Positions 32,802 through 44,332 of a stretch of DNA of 64,000 bases are shown here, piece by piece. Position 1 is the first letter of the stretch. The number at the start of each line of letters is the position of its first letter. The DNA lies in assembly GCF_024502345.1 (NCBI RefSeq), contig NZ_JALDNN010000001.1; one strand, given 5' to 3'. The position numbers and the translations under genes are program-made. The notes below the pieces were generated by a model, which worked only from the letters and a program-made list of their open reading frames with translations, was not told the DNA's origin and did not search any database. This stretch comes from Escherichia coli (GTDB lineage: Bacteria > Pseudomonadota > Gammaproteobacteria > Enterobacterales > Enterobacteriaceae).

Positions 32802-33030
32802 CTTTTTGTCCTTGTAACATAATTCCGTTCAACCACCGCCGACCGGTCAGCTTGGTTTCAATAACAAGCAATCTAAAACCTTAAGAGAACAACATCAATA
32901 CAAAAGTTGGAATATTTTTCCAAAACTAGATTTAGTCCACAAATTGAACAGGGTTATCATGTAAAAATACTGATAAATCAGAGGATAAGAAAATCACGCA
33001 ACTTGCGGATTTAAAAGGGGATACCTGAAG

Positions 33031-33957
33031 ATGTTCGATCCAGAAACCTTGCGGACTTTCATTGCGGTTGCTGAAACAGGAAGTTTTTCAAAAGCGGCAG
33101 AACGATTATGTAAAACCACGGCGACGATCAGTTATCGCATTAAACTTCTGGAAGAGAATACCGGAGTAGCGCTGTTTTTCCGCACGACTCGCAGCGTGAC
33201 GTTGACAGCGGCTGGCGAGCATCTACTTTCCCAGGCCAGAGACTGGCTGAGCTGGCTGGAAAGTATGCCAAGCGAGCTGCAACAGGTGAATGATGGCGTG
33301 GAACGCCAGGTGAATATTGTCATCAACAACCTGCTCTACAACCCCCAGGCCGTCGCCCAGTTGCTGGCGTGGCTGAATGAACGTTACCCCTTTACCCAGT
33401 TTCATATCTCCCGACAAATCTATATGGGCGTCTGGGATTCGCTATTATACGAAGGTTTTTCACTGGCTATCGGCGTCACGGGAACCGAGGCGCTGGCAAA
33501 TACCTTTAGTCTTGATCCCTTAGGATCGGTGCAATGGCGCTTTGTCATGGCGGCGGATCATCCGCTGGCGAACGTTGAAGAGCCGCTAACAGAAGCGCAG
33601 TTGCGGCGCTTTCCGGCGGTCAATATTGAAGACAGCGCCCGCACCTTAACCAAACGCGTCGCCTGGCGATTGCCAGGGCAAAAAGAGATTATTGTTCCTG
33701 ATATGGAAACGAAAATCGCCGCCCATCTTGCGGGCGTTGGCATTGGTTTTTTGCCAAAATCGCTTTGCCAGTCAATGATCGATAATCAACAACTGGTTAG
33801 CCGGGTAATCCCAACGATGCGCCCTCCTTCGCCATTGAGTCTGGCATGGCGCAAATTTGGCAGCGGCAAAGCGGTAGAAGATATTGTGACCTTGTTTACC
33901 CAGCGCAGGCCGGAAATCAGCGGATTTTTAGAAATTTTCGGCAACCCACGCAGTTAA
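33031..33957 (+). CDS. allS: LysR-family activator of allDCE
   Basis: 308 aa, [26 protein letters not shown]... Confidence 0.9.
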
Positions 33958-34010
33958 AAATCAAGTTTCCTTGCGCGTTGGCGCGTAAAATAGCGCGCAA
34001 GCTGATTTGA

Positions 34011-35120
<1,110 letters not shown>

Positions 35121-35199
35121 TGAGGGACGTATTTGTATTAGTCGCGACTTGATCTGACACATGGCCTTGAAAGGTTGAGAGTTACCGGTTTTGATATGA

Positions 35200-35580
35200 G
35201 TGTCGAATCCTTATCCAAAACAAGAGGTAACTCTCATGCTTCATACTGCCAATCCCGTCATCAAACACAAAGCCGGTTTGCTCAATCTGGCTGAAGAACT
35301 CAGCAACGTATCAAAAGCCTGTAAAATCATGGGCGTTTCGCGTGATACGTTTTATCGTTACCGCGAACTGGTCGCTGAAGGCGGTGTGGATGCGCAGATT
35401 AATCGTAGTCGCCGCGCTCCTAACCTTAAGAACCGTACCGATGAGGCAACTGAACAGGCTGTTGTTGATTACGCCGTCGCTTTCCCGACACATGGTCAGC
35501 ACCGGGCCAGCAACGAGCTGCGTAAACAGGGGGGTTTTTATCTCCGACAGTGGTGTCCGTTCTGTCTGGTTACTCCATAA
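35200..35580 (+). pseudogene. ybbD: IS481-family-like transposase, N-terminal fragment
   Basis: 126-aa ORF with HTH ...KACKIMGVSRDTFYRYRELVAEGGVDAQINRSRRAPNLKNRTDEATEQAVVDYAVAFPTHGQHRASNELRKQG...; the DDE catalytic domain is missing. Confidence 0.6.
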
Positions 35581-35620
35581 CCTTGAGAATCTCAAAAGAC
35601 GATACTGAACAAATTTTATC

Positions 35621-35756
35621 AGGTGACGTTCCGTAAAAAGTTGTATGGAGTTCTCGATGCAGTCGGCGCGACTATCAGTACCCCCGCTGAACCCTGGACT
35701 ATCGGGCCGCCGTACTGGGGCATGTCACCCTGGCGTGCCGCTGGTTTTCCGCTAAT
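35621..35756 (-). pseudogene. ylbH: Orphan Rhs N-terminal fragment
   Basis: Reads [26 protein letters not shown]..., about 80% nucleotide identity to the first ~95 nt of the rhs gene at 40806, but with ATT where that gene has ATG. Confidence 0.7.
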
Positions 35757-36122
35757 GGTTTATTTCCTCTTTCTTTCCCGGCAAGAATTTATTTTAATCC
35801 GGAAGGATTATTTATTTTCAGATAGGGACTCACATTAAACACGTAACATTTTAATTAATGCATGGCTGAATATGTATTACACAATGTCAGATATCGTAAA
35901 AGACCAGTGCAATTCTATGTAAACTCTCTGACTGTTCATTTTATTTGTTGTTTCAGGGTCGGAACTCACCCTCAATAAACAACTGAATACGAGTAGATAT
36001 TCATCGTCTGAGCTATATGGCTTTACACAATAGCCGACATGTCTTTTCTCAGTCAGGAATTTTACTTTTCCTCACTACGAAGTTGACGACTTCGATATGG
36101 GATAGACTCTTAATTCAAGCAA

Positions 36123-36584
36123 TTACTCTGCACAAGCATCAGGCAATCCAGCTCCAATATTTGTTATAAAATAATGCGTAACATTAATTTCACCAACAAA
36201 AAAAAGGTTTACACCATCCCCTTGCCCTGGTATCTTACCATATTTACACCACACTTTTTTTGTATCTGGATCATTCTTTGATACGATTTTCGCCACTTGT
36301 TCCCTGGCCCTCACTGTCAATGTTTTCTTAAACCTACCCCCATCATCATTTGTTAGGGAAAAATAAGAAAAAAAATAATCATCTTCTACATTTGTGTATA
36401 TTGATATATCCACCGCTACGTGCGGAAAAAAATCTGGGAGCCATGTAAAAACTCCATCATTTTCTGGTATTGCCATATAGTTTATGTAATGTTTACTTAC
36501 AAGAGATTCATCTTTGTATAAATAAAGATAAGTAATTACGCATAAAACAACAATGATTATAATAGCAAAAATAAATATTATCAT
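36123..36584 (-). CDS. Putative Rhs immunity protein (N-terminal transmembrane helix)
   Basis: AT-rich ORF just downstream of the rhs stop; MIIFIFAIIIIVVLCVITYLYLY...; the longer version starting at 36614 would overlap rhs by 20 nt. Confidence 0.6.
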   Translation of the reverse strand: MIIFIFAIIIIVVLCVITYLYLYKDESLVSKHYINYMAIPENDGVFTWLPDFFPHVAVDISIYTNVEDDYFFSYFSLTNDDGGRFKKTLTVRAREQVAKIVSKNDPDTKKVWCKYGKIPGQGDGVNLFFVGEINVTHYFITNIGAGLPDACAE

Positions 36585-36594
36585 CTTTGATAGA

Positions 36595-39500
36595 TTACTT
36601 GAGATAGCCAGCATCTTGTAAAGCCTTTATCGTTTTTTTATGCTCTGGATTAATATAATCACTACATCTATCTGAGCAATCTGTTGTTGATGGACATGTC
36701 AACCCATGGTCATTTACAGCCAAGTCTTTTTTATTATCTTCAATCATTTCAGAATGGGATAGCTTTACTTTTCTGCCGTACATACCGAACAGATTTAACC
36801 CGTAATCTCTAATCTCTTTTTCATAACCCAGCCCTTTCGCCGATCGGCTAACACCAGCGTCATTTAATTTAGACACTCGACAAAATGCCATACAATGAAA
36901 AAATTGATCAGTCCCACCTAAATTTAATCTCTTCATATCTTCATAAGTATCAGATAATATATCCCATGCTCTTTGATGGTTTAGTTGATCTTTTCTTCTT
37001 ATTAGCGCTACATCTGCGGGACTTAACCCTAATGGATCAATACCATTCACCGGATTCAGCGGATACGCATACAGACTCCATCCCCCCTCCAGCCCTATCG
37101 GGTCCTGAGTGATATACCGCCCCTGCAACGGATCGTAGTACCGGTTCCGGTTGTAGTACAGCCCCGACTCCTTATCATACTGCTGCCCCGGCAGCCGGTA
37201 CGGCTGGTGCAGGTGATGCGGGTTCTCCTCATTAAGCTGGTTGCCCCATTCATCATATTCCGCGCTCCACGCCGTATTGCCGTCTTCACTGATAAGCGCC
37301 AGCGGCAGGCCCCGGTGGTCACAGTGATAAAGATGTATTTTTCGCTCAGGCAAATAAACCGGCTCTATCTGTGCCGCCAGCCGCTCCACCGTCAGCCCGC
37401 ACTGCGCAAGCCACTGGCGGCTTTCACTGCTCACGCAGTTTGCCCGGATTTCCCCCTCCAGCCTGTCCAGCAGCCCCACCAGTTCAGCCGGGAACACCAC
37501 ACCGTGACCGTCTTCGCTCCCTTCCTGCTGTAACTTCTCCGCCAGGCTGCGGCACTGCGCTTTCTCCCGTTCACCGTTGTCTGTTTCGATGCGGATGAGC
37601 GGCGCGAAGCTCCCCGGCAGGTAGACCGTCTGGATTCGCGTGGTATCTGTCTGTACCGTCGTCAGGCGGTCTCCGTCCCAGCCGTACCATGTCATCTCCG
37701 GTTTACGCGACAGCGACATCCACCCCGTCAGGTCACGCTCCCGCCGCCATACCCGTTTCGCCATTCGCCGTCCCAGCGGGTCGTAGAGGTAGCGGCTCTC
37801 GACCAGTGGCTCGCCATGCTGTATCCGCGTGTGGAACACCAGGCGGTGCTGGCTGTCGTAGTGGTAGTGGTGGGTCCGCTCGTCGTCCGTCCGTATCACA
37901 CCCGTCGGGATGCGGTCCGTCTTCTCCGTCAGTCTGCCGTATTCATCATAGTGGTAAACATAGTGCGCATCCTCTGCGATGCGGTTATCCGGCCACGCCG
38001 TGAGCGTGCTGTCCGGGTGTAGCTCCGGGTCCGGCAGGCGGTTTCCCGCCGGGTCGGTGGCATACGGGATGCGGATGTCCAGGTCCGGTGCGAGGGTGCG
38101 CACGCTCTCCAGCCTGCCCGTGGCACTGTAGCCGTATTCCCGCGTCTGTCGCGGACCGCTGATGCGCACCAGGTCGCCGTTGTCATTCCACCCGTAGTCA
38201 CGGTCATACACCAGGCTGTTCAGGTGCTGGCTCTGTAACTGGCCTGCGGGGGTGTATGTGCTGGTCAGTTCATATGCGGCATTACTGCCTGCCATGCTGC
38301 CAAAGCTGCGCACCGTCTCCCGGTGCAGGCGGTCGCGCGTGTACTCCAGCAGCGGCGTGTCGCCGAGCTTCATGCCCGCCAGATAACCGCTGCCATACGT
38401 CAGCCACTCCACCGGCGGCAGGCTGTCCGGCGTGACGCGGTTTGCCAGCCCCTGTTCGTTGTAGGCGTGCGTTGTCTCATGCTGCCACAGCAGTTCCCCC
38501 GTCTCCGGGTTCTCCACCGTCTGGCGTTCGCCGGTCAGGCGGCCTTTATCGTCATAGCCGTAGTGGACCGACACGCGGTGGCCTTCACTGGTATGGCTGA
38601 GGGTGGTTAACCACCCGTGCTCATCATACTGCCACTGCTCTGCCGGGTCGCCGTTCACCGTCCGGTGCGTGATGCGGTCCGACGCATCGTAGTGCCAGAG
38701 GGTGATAAGCCCCTCATCCTCACTCTGCGTGAGTTTTCCGGTCAGGTCATAATGATAACGTTGCGTCCGCCCGTCAAAGCCGCCCTGCTGTACCAGCCGG
38801 TCCAGCGCATCGTAGCTGAAGTCGCTGTGACTGCCGTTCTCGTTAGTCAGACTGATGACACGTCCGGCAGCATCGTACTCCATACTGCGCGTCAGCCCGC
38901 CCTGCGTGGTGCTGACCGCCTTTCCCCACGCATCGTACTGTGTCTCGCTCCGGTTGCCGTCCGGGGTGATAACGGCAGTCAGGTCGCCTGCGGCGTTGTA
39001 CTCATACTGCGTTTCACGGCCCTGTGCGTCTTTCACCGAGGTTAACCGGCCACGGTTGTCATAGTGGCGGTAAAGGCTGATACCTTCCTCGCGGTGAACC
39101 GCCGTCATCTGGCCGAAGCGGTCGTATTCATAGCGGGTCTGGTAGCCCGAGCAGTCAGTGAACGCCAGCAACTGCCCGTAGCGGCTCCACGTCATCTGCC
39201 GGGTGCTGCCCGTCGCATCCGTTGTCGTCGCCGGTAACTCACTGTGCGCGTCATCGTAGCGGTAGCGTACTGTCTCCCCGCTGCGCGATGTCTCCGATAC
39301 CAGCCTGCCCGGTTCATCATATTCCCGGCGGCTCTCCAGCCCGTCCGGGTACACCACCGCCGTCAGCTGGTTCCCGTCGTTATAGTAAAATTTCGTCTCC
39401 CGCCCGTCCGGTGTGGTGATGTCCGTGATATCGCCGGACACCACATTCAGACCGTACTCTGTCCGCCGTCCCGCCGCGTCCGTCTGCGCCGTGAGCCTTC

Positions 39501-40806
39501 CTGCCGCGTCATACCCGCTGCGCGTGACGCTGCCGTCCGCCAGTTCTTTTTTCACCACCCGTTTCAGCCCGGCCCCGCCTTCTGTATGCAGCACCTCACG
39601 CCGGTTCAGGCTGTCGGTGACGGTGATGCGGTCCTGCTCATAAAGATAGCGGTAGCTTAACCCTGCCGGGTTCAGTTGCTCCACCACCCGCCCCGTATCG
39701 TCGTAGCGGTAGCGCATCTCCGGCCTGCCTGCATAACGGTGCCCCACCATCCGGCCCCGGTATTTATCATCGTAAGTAAAGTGGCGCATCTGCGTACCGC
39801 TGCGGTCATACACCGCCGCCAGCTCACCGCGTGGCGTCCAGTCGTAGCACACCAGTGGCGCGGCAGGTAAATTTTCCGGGTATTCCGGGTCGTGCATCAG
39901 CCACACCGCCGAAAGACGGATACCGCTGTCAGCGCCGTATTCCGTACCGGGCAGTGTGTCGGGGAAGGAAGGAGCTGAGAGAGGGCGGGGACTGTCAGGG
40001 GAAGATAACGAAGCGGTGTGCGGTTTACGGGCCTCTTCCGCCCGCTGTGCCTGTGTGGTCAGTACCAGACGGAACTCCCGCCCGGCACCGTCCGTCACGC
40101 CGGTGATTTCCCCGGCCAGGTCACCGGCGGCCTCACGCCGGTACGCCAGCGTCCGCCCGAAGCGGTCCGCCATCCCGGTAAGCACCCGGTACGGCGGCAG
40201 CGGCGCTGGCAGTAAGTCCTCAGCACCCGGCACCCGCTCAGACCACCCCAGTATCCACCACGGCCCCTGTGCGCTGTTGGTCGCCAGGTAAAGATGCGGG
40301 CTTAACCGGATATCCGGTGGCAGCGACGCCCACAGCCGTGCCAGCGTGTGGCCGTCCGGCTGCGCTGCCTTACCGCCACGCACCAGCCACATTGACTCAC
40401 TGCGGCTGTACACCGCCTCCCCCGGCAGCAGCGGCTCAAAGTGAATGCTCCGCCCGCCGTTGTCGTTGAGTATCAGTGCATCATCGCGTATCTGTAAGCG
40501 GATATCAGAAGGCGCTTTCCAGCCGGGGCCGAAAACGCCCACCGGTGCAGGCGTCTTCGTCCGGTAGCTGCTGTAGGTGCGGGAGAGAATGAACGGCAGC
40601 GGGCCGGGCAGCGCAAGGTCCGTCTCGCCGGGCTGTACTTTTGCACCGAGCAGCGGGTTCACCGGGTTGCCCGAGGTCATCCCGCCCGGACACACCGAGC
40701 ACGCCACGCCAGTTGGCGCGCCAATTCTTACACCTGCCGAACCCTGGACAATGGGACCGCCATACTGAGTCATATCTCCCTGACGCGCCGCTGGTTTTCC
40801 GCTCAT
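36595..40806 (-). CDS. rhsD: Rhs-family polymorphic toxin (YD-repeat protein)
   Basis: 1403 aa; N-terminus [25 protein letters not shown]; many YD repeats; DPxGL motif ([12 protein letters not shown]) followed by a 141-aa AT-rich C-terminal tip (about 36598-37020). Locus equated to rhsD by position. Confidence 0.9.
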
Positions 40807-41234
40807 ATAAAGTGCCCTTTTAGTTATTGTTCATATCCCTGTGTTAGCAACAAAAAAAATAAAATGACACACAAGACCAGCTAATGTATTTATATATTTT
40901 TCACATAAACTTATTTGTTCTCAATCAACAACAACTGTTATTACAGGTCACTTTCAATATTTTATTAAACTAAAATTTTTAGCACAGATGAATTCATCAT
41001 CAACAAATTCACTATATGGATAATATCCATTCAACGCATATGATTTATGATTTTATTAGTCTGAGTTATTTTTGTAGGGCTATATTTAAAATTATTAAAC
41101 TCCACCGATTCAGATTAATATCGCAATAGAAAGATAGGAAATCACCAATTCAATAACATCATCAATGAAACATATTGTAGAATTAATTTAAACAAGGCGT
41201 TCCATTCAACCAGAACGCCCCTTATTTACTCTCA

Positions 41235-43649
41235 TCACCCCGCAAACTGCCTGAACAGCGCCTTACCCTTAACCAGTCGCGCACCCAGCCAGCCGCCGAA
41301 AAGCGACAGCAGCAGCGCACCGCTGCACGGCAGAACAATCCACAATCGCCAGTCTGGCTCCCACGGGAAATCAAACACTTTCGCCTGCAACACTGCCAGT
41401 GCCGTTTCCGCACCAATTGCGGCCACCAGGCCGGAAACAAACCCAAGCATGACGAACTCACACCACAATGTCGTGCGCAGCAGTTTTTTCCCCGCACCGA
41501 GTGTGCGCCATACCACCAGCTCCTGATGACGCTGGCGCATTCCCACCTGCACCTGTGCCAGCAACAGCAACATACCGCAGGCGGTGACCAGCACCACCAT
41601 CACCTCCAGCGCCCGACTTACCTGCTCCAGCACCTGACCGACCTGTTTTAAAATCGCGCCAATATCTAACAGGCTAATGGTCGGGAACTGGCGGTTGAGT
41701 TGCGTCAACATGCCGTTGCCATTCTCCCAGCGGAAACTGGTAAGCCAGCTCTGCGGTTGCCCGTCTAATGCCCCTTCCGGGAAAATAAAATAGAAATTAG
41801 GCCGCAGACTTTCCCAGTCCACTTTGCGCAGGCTGGTCACTTTAGCGCGGAACTCCTGGGTATCGCCCATAAAAGTCACGGTATCACCGAGGGCAACGTT
41901 TAAGCGTTTCGCCAGCCCCTCTTCCATCGACACTTCATCGGCTTTTGGCGGCCAGTTACCGGCGACAATCGGATTATGATCGGGCCGCGTATTTTGCCAG
42001 GTAAGATTGAGTTCGCGATTAAGCGCCTCATCTTCATTACCTTCTGTCGGCTTATCGTTAATCGCCGTCAGCCGCGCCCGCACTACCGGATAAAATGATT
42101 CCGGGACTATATGATGTTCCGCGAGGAACGCTTTTAGCGGTGCTACCTGTTCTGTGGCGATGTTAATTAAAAAGTAGTTCGGGCTTTCTGGCGGTAGCTG
42201 CTGCTGCCAGCGGTCGAGCAGATCGCCACGCAATACCAGCAACAGCGCCAGCAGCATAAAGGAGAGCGAAAATGCCGAAAGCTGGCTTAACGTTGACCAC
42301 GGCTGACGTAACAGGCGGCTAACCGCCAGGCGCAAAGGTAGCGATTTCAGCGTCATGCGGCGAAGTACATTCAGCTGCATCCAGCCCAGCACACCGCACA
42401 GCAAAGCCAGTACTACCGCGCCCGCCAGCACCGCCCAAAGCAGCATGCTGCCACCCATTAATCCGGCGAGCAGCAGCACAACCACCACACTGACAATCGG
42501 CAGATAAAACTTCAGCGGCCAGACGTTCGCTACCACATCATTATGTAATACGCGTAAAGGCTGCGTTGCCAGCAACAAGCGGTATGGTCGTAGCCCCACC
42601 AGCAGCGAGATGACCGTCATGGTGCCAAGCGCCCACAGCCACGGCCAGAGGCTGGCTGGCGGTAGTGCAGCAGGCAGAACGGGCTTGAGCAGCACCATCA
42701 ACACGTTTTCGAACAACAGGCCTATGGCCCCACCGGTAACGGCTGAAAGCGTCAGCACCATCAACCACTGACCGACGATTAGCTTACGCAGTTGCGCTCG
42801 CCCTGCCCCCAGCGTTTTGAGGATCGCCACCAGATCGTAGCGACTGCGACAGTAATGATTCATCGCTACCGCCACCGCTGCCACTGCCAGCAGCAAGGTC
42901 AGAAGCGCCGAAAGCAGCAGGAACTGTTGCGAGCGTTCCATCGATCGCCCCAGCGCGCCTTCGTCCTGTTCCAGACCGTACCAGCGTTGTTCGGGTTTAA
43001 GCTGAGGTAACAACCATTTCTCATAGCCGTCGAGCTGGTTCTCGTTGCCGCCGAATTTATAACGCCAGGTGACCCGACTCCCCGGCTGCACGGCTCCGGT
43101 TTTATCGACATCCGCCAGATTCATCATCAGACGCGGAGCCATCTGGAAGGGGTTAAAACCGGAATCCGGTTCCTGAATCACTTCTCCGGCAATCCGCAAG
43201 GTGGCATCGCCCACGTCAATGGTGTCGCCCGTTTTCAGGTTAAGCAGTGCCATCAGGCGTGGGGCCAGCAATACGCTGCCCGCCTGCGGTTTCAGGCCAG
43301 GGGGATTAGTTTGCAGATCGCCATACATCGGGTAGATATCATCCACCGCTTTGACGTTCGCCAGCTGCGGTGTGTCGCCTGCAAAGGTCATTGTGGCGAA
43401 AGTCAGCTGCTTGCCGACTTTCAGGCCGCGCTTTTGCGCTTCCTCCAGCCACGCTTGCGGCACTTCGCGTGAACTGCGCAACGCCCGATCGCCCGCCATA
43501 AACTCACGGCTTTGCTGGCTTAAGCCCTTCTCCATGCGATCGCTGATATTGCCCAGCGCCAGCACGCAGGCCACCGCCAGGCTTAGCGCCAGCCAGACAA
43601 TTAATAGCGACGGCGAACGCCATTCGCGCCAGAACCAACGTGCAATCAT
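41235..43649 (-). CDS. ybbP: ABC transporter permease (FtsX-like, two-domain)
   Basis: 804 aa, MIARWFWREWRSPSLLIVWLALSLAVACVLAL... Confidence 0.9.
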   Translation of the reverse strand: MIARWFWREWRSPSLLIVWLALSLAVACVLALGNISDRMEKGLSQQSREFMAGDRALRSSREVPQAWLEEAQKRGLKVGKQLTFATMTFAGDTPQLANVKAVDDIYPMYGDLQTNPPGLKPQAGSVLLAPRLMALLNLKTGDTIDVGDATLRIAGEVIQEPDSGFNPFQMAPRLMMNLADVDKTGAVQPGSRVTWRYKFGGNENQLDGYEKWLLPQLKPEQRWYGLEQDEGALGRSMERSQQFLLLSALLTLLLAVAAVAVAMNHYCRSRYDLVAILKTLGAGRAQLRKLIVGQWLMVLTLSAVTGGAIGLLFENVLMVLLKPVLPAALPPASLWPWLWALGTMTVISLLVGLRPYRLLLATQPLRVLHNDVVANVWPLKFYLPIVSVVVVLLLAGLMGGSMLLWAVLAGAVVLALLCGVLGWMQLNVLRRMTLKSLPLRLAVSRLLRQPWSTLSQLSAFSLSFMLLALLLVLRGDLLDRWQQQLPPESPNYFLINIATEQVAPLKAFLAEHHIVPESFYPVVRARLTAINDKPTEGNEDEALNRELNLTWQNTRPDHNPIVAGNWPPKADEVSMEEGLAKRLNVALGDTVTFMGDTQEFRAKVTSLRKVDWESLRPNFYFIFPEGALDGQPQSWLTSFRWENGNGMLTQLNRQFPTISLLDIGAILKQVGQVLEQVSRALEVMVVLVTACGMLLLLAQVQVGMRQRHQELVVWRTLGAGKKLLRTTLWCEFVMLGFVSGLVAAIGAETALAVLQAKVFDFPWEPDWRLWIVLPCSGALLLSLFGGWLGARLVKGKALFRQFAG

Positions 43650-44332
43650 GCTTCCTCCTGCAACTGCCCGTTCACCAGCCGTAAGCAGCGGTCGCAGCGT
43701 GCCGCCAGTTGCAGGTCGTGGGTCACCATAATCAACGTGGTGCCATGTTCACGGTTGAGGGAAAACAGCAGGTCGGCAATTTTATCGCCCGTCTGGCGGT
43801 CAAGGTTGCCGGTGGGTTCGTCGGCAAACAGCACATCAGGTCGACCATTAAAGGCTCGTGCCAGCGCCACTCGTTGCTGTTCACCGCCGGAAAGCTGTGC
43901 CGGAAGATGATCCAGACGTTTACCCAGCCCTAACTGTTCGAGCAACGCTTTCGCCCCGTTACGACTTTCCGCGCTACTCTCACCGCGCAGCAGAGCCGGA
44001 AGCTCGACGTTTTCCAGCGCGTTAAGGGTAGGAATTAACATAAATGACTGAAAAACAAAGCCGACGTGCTTCGCGCGCAACTTTGCCCGCGCTTCTTCGT
44101 CCATATTATGTAGCGGTTGTCCCACCAGACTCACTTCGCCACTGCTGCCGTCATCAAGCCCGGCGAGGATCGCCAGCAAGGTTGACTTACCCGATCCCGA
44201 CTCGCCCACCAGTGCGATGGTCTCGCCACGTTTGACAACCAGCTCAACTCCGGTGAGGATGGAGAGTTCATGCTCCCCCTGACCGACGGACTTCTTAAGA
44301 TGATGAACTTCAACAATGTTTTCCGCTGGCAT
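43646..44332 (-). CDS. ybbA: ABC transporter ATP-binding protein
   Basis: 228 aa with Walker A (GESGSGKST) and signature LSGGEQQR. Confidence 0.9.
   Translation of the reverse strand: MPAENIVEVHHLKKSVGQGEHELSILTGVELVVKRGETIALVGESGSGKSTLLAILAGLDDGSSGEVSLVGQPLHNMDEEARAKLRAKHVGFVFQSFMLIPTLNALENVELPALLRGESSAESRNGAKALLEQLGLGKRLDHLPAQLSGGEQQRVALARAFNGRPDVLFADEPTGNLDRQTGDKIADLLFSLNREHGTTLIMVTHDLQLAARCDRCLRLVNGQLQEEA

What the first reader, a model, noticed from the sequence alone, without database searches (positions are those of the whole stretch)
35621..35838. Orphan copy of the Rhs N-terminus with ATT in place of the start codon
The sequence at 35650-35756 (minus strand) repeats the first ~95 nt of the rhs gene at 40806 at roughly 80% identity ([25 protein letters not shown] vs [25 protein letters not shown]) and then diverges; the start position reads ATT. 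A decayed N-terminal fragment flanking the tip/immunity cassette marks an earlier rearrangement and provides a direct repeat bracketing the ~5-kb rhs body.
Basis: seen in the sequence. Interest (0 to 1): 0.4.

Follow-up and report, generated by a model that had tools for sequence, protein, structure and literature searches.

The report
Known E. coli pseudogene ylbI
The orphan piece is real, but it is the already-annotated E. coli pseudogene ylbI: the first 96 bases of a long-lost second Rhs toxin gene, cut off where it was fused to a dead insertion sequence, and almost certainly inert.

Summary
Window 35661-35756 (minus strand) repeats the first 96 nt of the rhs gene at 40806 with 76/96 identity. 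That is z≈30 against dinucleotide shuffles and BLAST E=1e-19. ATT sits at the start position and homology stops abruptly at nt 97.

The window is the E. coli RhsD island between ybbP and mnmH/selU. The fragment is 100% identical to K-12 pseudogene ylbI (b4632) and is essentially invariant in about 2,790 of 5,426 complete E. coli genomes.

It is not a decayed copy of the neighbouring gene. Sixteen of 20 differences fall at third codon positions, and the upstream leaders are unrelated. The rhsD and rhsE 5' ends match each other 96/96 but match ylbI only 76/96. So ylbI is the 5' stump of a different rhs lineage that diverged while still functional.

The break at 35660/35661 joins it directly to an internal point of a defective IS481-family transposase. 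The N-terminal part of that transposase is ylbG, and its outer end forms the island's left boundary.

The "direct repeat" is literally true, with starts 5,050 bp apart. However, its longest identical run is 17 nt, and no genome shows the predicted recombinant or deletion product.

Verdict: ordinary, already annotated, low interest.

The parts
35661..35756 (-). ylbI: the first 96 nt (32 codons) of an rhs gene, carrying the literal P-A-A-R motif, with ATT in place of ATG at 35756-35754
   Evidence: 76/96 identical to the rhs 5' end at 40711-40806. 100% identical to K-12 ylbI b4632. PGAP annotates the same 96 nt as an incomplete CDS missing its C-terminus. Pfam PAAR_motif scores 22 bits, E=1.9e-4, below the 27-bit cut-off.
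35622..35660 (-). Non-rhs tail of the 45-codon reading frame (ASRTPYNFLRNVT, then two stop codons at 35616-35621). It is the antisense of the IS481 transposase remnant.
   Evidence: Translation. Homology to the IS481 remnant.
35593..35661 (+). C-terminal (integrase-core) remnant of an IS481-family transposase (KTILNKFYQVTFRKKLYGVLDA). It ends at the junction with ylbI, with a 2-nt CA overlap at 35660-35661.
   Evidence: 81% identical over 69 nt to L013 2931-2999 on a Salmonella IncX1 plasmid. That ORF matches NCBIfam IS481 transposase positions 225-283 (E=1.3e-19) and Pfam rve_3. Junction alignment.
35134..35601 (+). Left part of the same defective IS481-family element, including ylbG (ATG at 35236; HTH_29 DNA-binding N-terminus). 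In this window it is frameshifted by one extra G relative to K-12.
   Evidence: 94.9% identical to L013 2398-2868 and 95.4% to the F11 pathogenicity-island copy. Pfam HTH_29 E=2e-20. NCBIfam IS481 positions 2-112 of 284, E=2e-25. Frameshift shown.
35757..36122 (-). AT-rich spacer (35.5% G+C) between the ybbD stop codon and ylbI. A Shine-Dalgarno-like AGAGGA lies 8 nt before the ATT. 35805-35987 is shared with the RhsE locus.
   Evidence: Single copy and at least 99% conserved in 2,689 genomes. 86% identical to the spacer after the immunity gene at the RhsE locus of strain 142. A genomic SELEX paper lists an RpoD holoenzyme site ybbD>ylbI with the motif TCGTCA-19-TAAAAT, which I located at 36089-36059.
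36123..36614 (-). Intact ybbD-family gene (163 aa), the presumed immunity partner of the rhs tip
   Evidence: NCBIfam NF011298, 379.6 bits, full length. RefSeq names it 'YbbD family protein'.
36595..40806 (-). Full-length rhs gene (1403 aa). 40711-40806 is the other copy of the repeat. The core/tip boundary [10 protein letters not shown] is at aa 1252 (nt 37053).
   Evidence: ORF. Pfam RHS_repeat x11, DUF6531 and RHS. The core is 93.6% identical to K-12 rhsD, and the tip plus downstream region is 99.1% identical to K-12 ylbH-ybbD-ylbI-ylbG. Boundary motif.
35128..41224 (.). The whole RhsD accessory island, inserted between mnmH/selU (34026-35120, +) and ybbP (41235-43649, -)
   Evidence: The empty site in APEC O1 has mnmH, 58 bp, then ybbP. 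Homology to that empty site ends at window 35127 on one side and resumes at 41225 on the other.

Best explanation
The fragment is ylbI, an inert relic. It is the 5' stump (codons 1-32) of a second rhs gene that once lay downstream of the rhs-tip-ybbD cassette in the RhsD island, in the same orientation.

That gene belonged to an rhs lineage distinct from rhsD/rhsE and had diverged from it while both were functional. An illegitimate, 2-nt-microhomology junction then joined its nt 96/97 to an internal point of a convergently oriented, already or subsequently defective IS481-family element. ylbG is the N-terminus of that element, and its outer end forms the island boundary next to mnmH. The junction removed the rest of the gene, more than 4 kb.

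The ATG>ATT and T13P changes are later or coincident decay. The stump has been carried unchanged ever since in every E. coli lineage that has the island. It has no role of its own.

Shown: homology, identity with ylbI, the substitution pattern, the exact junction and its IS481 partner, the island boundaries, the population distribution and the absence of recombinants.

Inferred: that a full-length second rhs gene existed at this position. The alternative is that the stump was simply the end of the DNA segment when it was acquired. Lack of function is also inferred.
For: - Identity to K-12 ylbI (b4632) is 100% over 341 nt.
- Similarity to the rhs 5' end is 76/96, far above chance. It starts exactly at the start codon and ends exactly at nt 96/97.
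- 16 of 20 differences fall at codon position 3, giving 13 synonymous and 4 non-synonymous codons.
- rhsD and O157 rhsE are 96/96 identical to each other and 76/96 to ylbI. The best intact E. coli rhs 5' end is 84% identical over the 95 nt BLAST aligned, 80/96 in register.
- 35593-35661 is an IS481 transposase C-terminal remnant and 35134-35601 is its N-terminal part, ylbG.
- The IS left end coincides with the island boundary at 35128-35134.
- The same junction and the same ATT are present in K-12, B, O157:H7 and many other strains. About 2,790 of 5,426 genomes match at 99% or better.
- There is no canonical start codon, the frame is only 45 codons long, and its last 13 codons are antisense IS sequence.
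- No deletion or recombinant product was found.
Against: - No genome was found in which the spacer is followed by an intact rhs gene, so the 'lost second gene' has no living witness. The spacer is always followed by ylbI in E. coli. A 26-mer scan of 100,044 species representatives returned only a mis-binned E. coli contig.
- A good Shine-Dalgarno-like AGAGGA sits 8 nt upstream of the ATT. A published in-vitro RpoD-holoenzyme SELEX peak lies in the ybbD-ylbI spacer. Some expression therefore cannot be excluded.
- The fragment is near-invariant. However, so is the flanking non-coding spacer, so this reflects the island's low diversity rather than selection on ylbI.
Confidence: 0.85

Rival explanations
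1. A local duplication of the neighbouring rhs gene's own 5' end was created by a rearrangement of this locus and then decayed in place to about 80% identity.
For: The two copies have the same orientation, lie 5,050 bp apart, and sit in a locus known for rearrangements. The start codon is mutated.
Against: Neutral decay would spread changes evenly over codon positions. Here 16 of 20 are at position 3 and 13 of 17 changed codons are synonymous. The leaders immediately upstream are unrelated, 10/30. The rest of the island is 99-100% conserved among strains while the repeat is 21% diverged. The rhsD and rhsE 5' ends are identical to each other and equally distant from ylbI.
Confidence: 0.05
2. 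The stump is functional. One version is that it makes a small translated peptide with a PAAR motif, initiated at ATT or at the internal ATG of codon 12. The other is that it acts as a cis recombination site (direct repeat) that lets the cell excise or exchange the rhs gene.
For: A Shine-Dalgarno-like AGAGGA lies 8 nt upstream. An RpoD SELEX site lies in the spacer. The fragment is near-invariant in about 2,790 genomes. Annotation pipelines sometimes-54 aa ORFs here.
Against: - 32 residues cover only a fraction of the Pfam PAAR_motif profile (positions 50-69 of 70), and the Pfam score is below its cut-off.
- The rest of the ORF is antisense IS sequence.
- From my own knowledge, not tested here: ATT is a very weak initiator in E. 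coli.
- The adjacent non-coding spacer is equally invariant.
- The longest perfect match between the repeats is 17 nt. From my own knowledge, this is below the roughly 25-bp minimum for efficient RecA-mediated recombination.
- None of 5,426 genomes has the predicted deletion product, and none has a converted allele.
Confidence: 0.04
3. This is a variant on timing. No full second rhs gene ever existed in E. coli. The island arrived as a DNA segment whose end happened to fall 96 nt into the donor's next rhs gene, and it was joined to the resident or co-transferred IS481 remnant during integration.
For: The junction is identical in all island-bearing lineages examined, and no longer version of the stump exists in E. 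coli. The junction has only 2 nt of microhomology, as expected for end-joining or illegitimate recombination. The IS remnant forms the island's outer edge.
Against: Nothing discriminates this from an in-situ deletion. The same defective IS481 derivative occurs elsewhere, on Salmonella IncX1 plasmids and in a UPEC pathogenicity island. It is therefore a mobile or hitch-hiking remnant that could have been on either partner.
Confidence: 0.35

Closest known systems
ylbI (b4632), pseudogene of E. coli K-12 MG1655, at 529497-529592 between ybbD and ylbG
   Same: It is the same sequence: 100% identity over the fragment and 245 nt of flanks. It has the same neighbours (ybbD upstream, ylbG and selU/mnmH downstream) and the same 96-nt extent.
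   Different: Nothing differs in the fragment itself. The window strain differs upstream. Its main rhs carries the ylbH-type tip directly and ybbD is intact, whereas K-12 has an extra rhsD-CT/ybbC module and a disrupted ybbD.
Orphan Rhs C-terminal tips made by C-terminal displacement (for example ylbH, yibJ, ybfO; Jackson et al. 2009, PMC2935791)
   Same: Both are rhs gene remnants that accumulate downstream of the main rhs gene inside Rhs islands and record past rearrangements.
   Different: Orphan tips are 3' fragments: a piece of core, the PxxxxDPxGL motif, a toxin domain and an immunity gene. They can be re-fused to the main gene by homologous recombination. ylbI is a 5' fragment with no toxin and no immunity gene. 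It cannot arise by C-terminal displacement. In the term search of Jackson et al. that I ran, no passage described N-terminal stumps.
rhsE 5' stump at the vgrG-rhsE locus of E. coli strain 142 (L010 6835-6851)
   Same: It is another rhs N-terminal stump produced by a mobile-element-associated break. Its ribosome-binding region resembles ylbI's in 14 of 18 nt.
   Different: It is only 17 nt long and is cut by an intact ISEc1 (H-repeat) insertion, with its ATG retained. ylbI is 96 nt and is fused to an internal point of a defective IS481 element, so it is a deletion junction rather than an insertion end.
IS481-family insertion sequences (NCBIfam NF033577)
   Same: The partner of the junction (ylbG plus 35593-35661) matches the N-terminal HTH (profile positions 2-112) and, through its plasmid homologue, the C-terminal integrase-core end (profile positions 225-283).
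   Different: The catalytic middle (about positions 113-224) and the right end are missing, so it cannot transpose.

Membership tests
Rhs core-protein gene (E. coli PAAR-motif Rhs N-terminus) | Sequence homology to the conserved 5' end / N-terminus of rhs genes | tested here: met
   76/96 nt and 28/32 aa identical to the resident rhs, E=1e-19, z≈30. 80/96 identical to another E. coli rhs lineage.
Rhs core-protein gene (E. coli PAAR-motif Rhs N-terminus) | Canonical start codon and a long open frame encoding YD/RHS repeats, the RHS core and a C-terminal tip | tested here: not met
   ATT sits at the start position. The frame is 45 codons, of which only 32 are rhs-derived. Pfam finds no RHS_repeat, DUF6531 or RHS domain.
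K-12 pseudogene ylbI (b4632) | Same sequence at the same chromosomal position (between ybbD and ylbG/selU) | tested here: met
   100% identity over 341 aligned nt, with identical gene order.
Orphan Rhs toxin/immunity module (C-terminal displacement product) | A 3' core fragment with the PxxxxDPxGL boundary, a toxin tip and a downstream immunity gene | tested here: not met
   The fragment corresponds to codons 1-32 only. The next feature downstream is a convergent IS481 remnant, not an immunity gene. In the window rhs, the boundary motif occurs only at aa 1252.
PAAR domain (Pfam PF05488) | Score at or above the Pfam gathering threshold, with a complete domain | tested here: not met
   22.0 bits against a cut-off of 27. 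Only profile positions 50-69 of 70 are matched. The literal P-A-A-R tetrapeptide is present at residues 5-8.
IS481-family insertion sequence (the junction partner, ylbG) | N-terminal HTH plus a DDE integrase core matching the family profile at full length | tested here: not met
   Only profile positions 2-112 are matched (E=2e-25; 89.9 bits against a cut-off of 224), plus a remnant of about 23 codons from the C-terminal end. This is family-level homology, but the element is defective.
IS481-family insertion sequence (the junction partner, ylbG) | Terminal inverted repeats and a target-site duplication | tested here: inconclusive
   The left end is inferred at about 35130-35134, where homology to other copies begins. 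The right end is deleted, so inverted repeats and a target duplication cannot be checked.

The most novel reading that the evidence does not exclude
The RhsD island once carried two full-length rhs genes in tandem, and ylbI, with its retained ribosome-binding site and the RNA-polymerase-binding spacer, is still expressed. It would make a short PAAR-motif peptide or a transcript that modulates the neighbouring rhs/ybbD cassette or type VI secretion loading. That would make it a domesticated stump rather than junk.
Probability: 0.03. Interest if true: 0.4.

Novelty: already known. Interest (0 to 1): 0.08.

Why it matters
It matters little. The fragment is an annotated pseudogene found in about half of all E. 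coli genomes.

The modest added value is anatomical. The stump comes from a separate rhs lineage rather than from the neighbouring gene. Its break-point is a direct fusion to a defective IS481 element that also forms the edge of the RhsD island.

This gives a fixed, easily scored marker for the single origin of the RhsD island in phylogroups A, B1, C and E. It also shows that Rhs islands record N-terminal losses as well as the well-known C-terminal displacements.

Tried and rejected
- **Recombinant or deletion product.** I searched 5,426 complete E. coli genomes with a synthetic rhs-leader + rhs nt 1-44 + ylbI nt 45-onward query. No place covered 80% or more of it.
- **ATG/Thr13 'ancestral' allele.** A synthetic query found nothing better than the normal ylbI. 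A metagenome scan for the ATG version gave 0 hits. The nr protein P0001 with M1/T13 has no contig on record. Its cluster mates are ordinary ylbI translations or rare indel variants.
- **Donor lineage.** A 26-mer scan of 100,044 species-representative genomes gave only a mis-binned E. coli contig. In hindsight the pattern was too strict at its 3' end, because the closest E. coli rhs lineage differs there by 1 nt. The donor therefore remains unidentified rather than shown absent.
- **Protein search with the 45-aa ORF.** It returned only short rhs stubs and partial proteins, which were uninformative on origin.
- **Rfam.** Nothing reached threshold in 33000-43000.
- **Promoter and terminator consensus scan.** It showed no enrichment, and there was no site on the ylbI strand in the spacer.
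- **Literature.** 'ylbI' occurs in one relevant paper, the SELEX table. 'b4632' occurs in none. In the term search of Jackson et al. 2009 that I ran, no passage described N-terminal stumps.
- **Frame error of mine.** Searches used 35237 instead of 35236 as the ylbG start. This did not affect the DNA-level conclusions and was corrected.

Full report
**Observation.** Read on the minus strand from 35756, the sequence is ATT AGC GGA AAA CCA GCG GCA CGC ... It translates to [32 protein letters not shown], then ASRTPYNFLRNVT and two stop codons. The rhs ORF at 36595-40806 (1403 aa) begins [32 protein letters not shown].

In register from the two start positions, the DNA is identical at 64/78, 75/95 and 76/96 positions. 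Only 3 of the next 24 match. The 30 nt upstream match at 10/30. So the similarity begins exactly at the start codon and ends at nt 96/97.

It is far beyond chance. BLAST of the fragment against the whole window finds only itself and 40710-40806, E=1e-19. None of 100,000 mononucleotide shuffles exceeded 45/96. Against 2,000 dinucleotide-preserving shuffles, the local alignment score is 37 compared with 7.9 ± 1.0, z≈30.

**What the locus is.** The window is the E. coli RhsD locus in reverse orientation, with these genes:
- ybbA: 43646-44332, minus strand
- ybbP: 41235-43649, minus strand
- rhs: 36595-40806, minus strand
- a 163-aa YbbD-family gene: 36123-36614, minus strand
- the fragment
- ylbG: plus strand
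- mnmH/selU: 34026-35120, plus strand
- allS

In K-12 MG1655 the 96-nt fragment is annotated as pseudogene ylbI (b4632, 529497-529592). The window is 100% identical to K-12 over the fragment and its flanks, 341 nt in all. RefSeq/PGAP annotates the same 96 nt in other strains as an incomplete CDS 'missing C-terminus'. One GenBank record (E. coli P12b) even calls a sub-ORF of it 'YD repeat protein'. From memory, not checked here: K-12 curators describe ylbI as an Rhs-family N-terminal fragment.

**Distribution.** About 2,790 of 5,426 complete E. coli genomes carry ylbI at 99% identity or better, including K-12, B, O157:H7 and many B1 strains. The ATT and the downstream junction are the same in all those inspected. 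The only variants seen were a synonymous CCC>CCT and a C>T at position -1.

Phylogroup-B2-type genomes such as APEC O1 have an empty site, with mnmH, 58 bp, then ybbP. Homology to that empty site ends at window 35127 and resumes at 41225. The whole 6.1-kb block 35128-41224, including ylbG and ylbI, is therefore the accessory RhsD island. A few strains have lost ylbI through IS3-associated deletions.

**Not a decayed copy of the neighbour.** Of the 20 differences between ylbI and the resident rhs 5' end, 16 are at third codon positions. Thirteen changed codons are synonymous and four are not: M1I (the start codon), T13P, R27L and G29V. The 5' 96 nt of the window rhs (rhsD-type) and of O157:H7 rhsE are 96/96 identical to each other and 76/96 to ylbI. 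An rhs in an asn-tRNA island of strain H5 is 85/96 to rhsD/E and 80/96 to ylbI. It shows that ylbI's CCC (Pro13) is one step from ACC (Thr). No intact E. coli rhs gene exceeds 84% identity.

This pattern means the lineage that gave rise to ylbI diverged from rhsD/E under purifying selection, that is, as a working gene. Only a few changes, ATG>ATT and T13P among them, look like decay. The ribosome-binding region of ylbI (AGAAAGAGGAAATAAACC) resembles that of rhsE (14/18) more than that of rhsD. This is only a weak hint about ancestry.

**What cut it.** On the plus strand, 35134-35601 is 94.9% identical to a defective IS copy on Salmonella IncX1 plasmids (L013 2398-2868). It is 95.4% identical to a copy in a UPEC F11 pathogenicity island. 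ylbG (ATG at 35236) is its HTH_29 N-terminus. It matches NCBIfam 'IS481 family transposase' positions 2-112 of 284, E=2e-25.

The 59 nt between ylbG homology and ylbI are not anonymous. 35593-35661 is 81% identical to L013 2931-2999. It translates to KTILNKFYQVTFRKKLYGVLDA, against KTILNEFYQVTFRKKLYGDLDT in the plasmid ORF. That ORF matches IS481 profile positions 225-283 (E=1.3e-19) and Pfam rve_3.

The three-way alignment places the junction at 35660/35661, with a 2-nt CA overlap. So nt 96/97 of an rhs gene is fused head-on, in convergent orientation, to an internal point near the C-terminus of a defective IS481 transposase gene. The IS's outer (left) end at about 35130-35134 is also the island's boundary next to mnmH. 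Because the IS's own right end is missing, this is an illegitimate deletion or joining event, not an IS insertion end.

**The spacer.** The 366-nt AT-rich spacer (35757-36122) is single-copy and at least 99% conserved in 2,689 genomes. So the near-invariance of ylbI reflects the island's low diversity, not selection on ylbI. Positions 35805-35987 are 86% identical to the spacer that follows the immunity gene at the RhsE locus of strain 142, where ISEc1 follows. This fits the known RhsD-E kinship (Jackson et al. 2009, PMC2935791). A genomic-SELEX study lists an RpoD-holoenzyme site 'ybbD > ylbI' with TCGTCA-19-TAAAAT (PMC3946193). I located that motif at 36089-36059, about 300 nt upstream of ylbI. 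A simple consensus scan found no promoter on that strand in the spacer and no enrichment overall. Rfam found nothing above threshold.

**The 'direct repeat' idea.** The two copies are direct repeats with starts 5,050 bp apart, but the longest identical run is 17 nt. A synthetic query representing the expected deletion product (rhs leader + rhs 5' + ylbI 3' + IS flank) found no place covering 80% or more in any of 5,426 genomes. Megablast would tolerate any crossover point within the repeat. The identity bands for the natural fragment contain no 90-95% class, so converted alleles are absent too. The repeat is therefore real in geometry but has left no trace of activity.

**Comparison with strains carrying other tips.** The window rhs is 93.6% identical to K-12 rhsD up to the [10 protein letters not shown] boundary (aa 1252, nt 37053). 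From 37303 downstream, the window is 99.1% identical to K-12 ylbH-ybbD-ylbI-ylbG-selU. K-12 thus has an extra module of about 0.95 kb (rhsD-CT + ybbC) inserted ahead of the ylbH tip, the classical C-terminal displacement architecture. The window strain has the ylbH-type tip on the main gene and an intact ybbD. ylbI sits at the same place, unchanged, in both architectures. It therefore predates this tip turnover.

**Origin searches that failed.**
- A 26-mer from ylbI scanned against one genome for each of 100,044 species hit only a 4-kb contig that is 98.5% E. coli RhsD DNA, mis-binned into an Alistipes MAG. The pattern was strict, so a moderately diverged donor is not excluded.
- A metagenome scan for an ATG-bearing allele found nothing.
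- A protein search with the 45-aa frame returned only short rhs stubs. These show that truncated rhs 5' ends are common in E. coli assemblies.

**Conclusion.** The finding is a correct sighting of a known, annotated pseudogene. The best-supported account (confidence about 0.85) is an inert 5' stump of a distinct rhs gene, fused by illegitimate recombination to a defective IS481 element at the edge of the RhsD island. It has been inherited unchanged by all island-bearing E. coli.

It remains unresolved whether a complete second rhs gene ever stood here in E. coli, or whether the stump was simply the end of the acquired segment. A functional role, as a peptide or a recombination site, is not excluded but has no support. 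Novelty: already known. Interest: low.

Noticed in passing
window 36595-37303 and 36123-36614: The main rhs gene carries, as its own tip, the toxin domain that is only an orphan (ylbH) in K-12. Its partner ybbD is intact here (163 aa) but disrupted in K-12. K-12 has an additional rhsD-CT/ybbC module of about 0.95 kb in between. This is a textbook case of C-terminal displacement, or of its reversal by recombination between the core repeats.
   Followed up: partly
window 35134-35661 (+): ylbG is not a free-standing regulator. It is the HTH N-terminus of a defective IS481-family element that has lost its catalytic middle. Near-identical defective copies sit on Salmonella Heidelberg IncX1 plasmids and next to cnf1 in a UPEC F11 pathogenicity island. 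In this window a G7 run (G6 in K-12) frameshifts ylbG.
   Followed up: yes
window 35805-35987: This part of the ybbD-ylbI spacer is 86% identical to the spacer after the immunity gene at the RhsE locus (E. coli strain 142, L010 9001-9185). There the homology stops about 150 nt before the ISEc1 (H-repeat) transposase gene, roughly where that element should begin. It is a shared 'post-immunity' segment of the RhsD and RhsE elements.
   Followed up: partly
window 35062-35233 (-): A sub-threshold Rfam match to psRNA2 (RF02349; 31 bits against a gathering score of 65; E=1.4e-4; full model length) spans the mnmH 3' end and the island/IS left boundary. It is probably chance or a fortuitous structure.
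   Followed up: no
It is a chimera of the IS481 C-terminal remnant read through into the antisense of ylbI and the spacer. No annotation calls it, and it is very likely spurious.
   Followed up: partly
L012 (CASFSC010000074.1, 3995 bp): A contig assigned to an 'uncultured Alistipes sp.' MAG is 98.5% identical to window 34487-37303, which is E. coli RhsD island plus mnmH. It is a binning contaminant in a public species-representative genome.
   Followed up: yes
L010 6817-6851 (E. coli strain 142, RhsE locus): This is another rhs N-terminal stump. Only the ribosome-binding site, the ATG and 14 further nt of rhsE remain after vgrG, and the sequence beyond is non-rhs, ahead of an ISEc1 transposase gene. 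Many short 'hypothetical proteins' beginning [17 protein letters not shown] in public E. coli annotations are similar stumps.
   Followed up: partly
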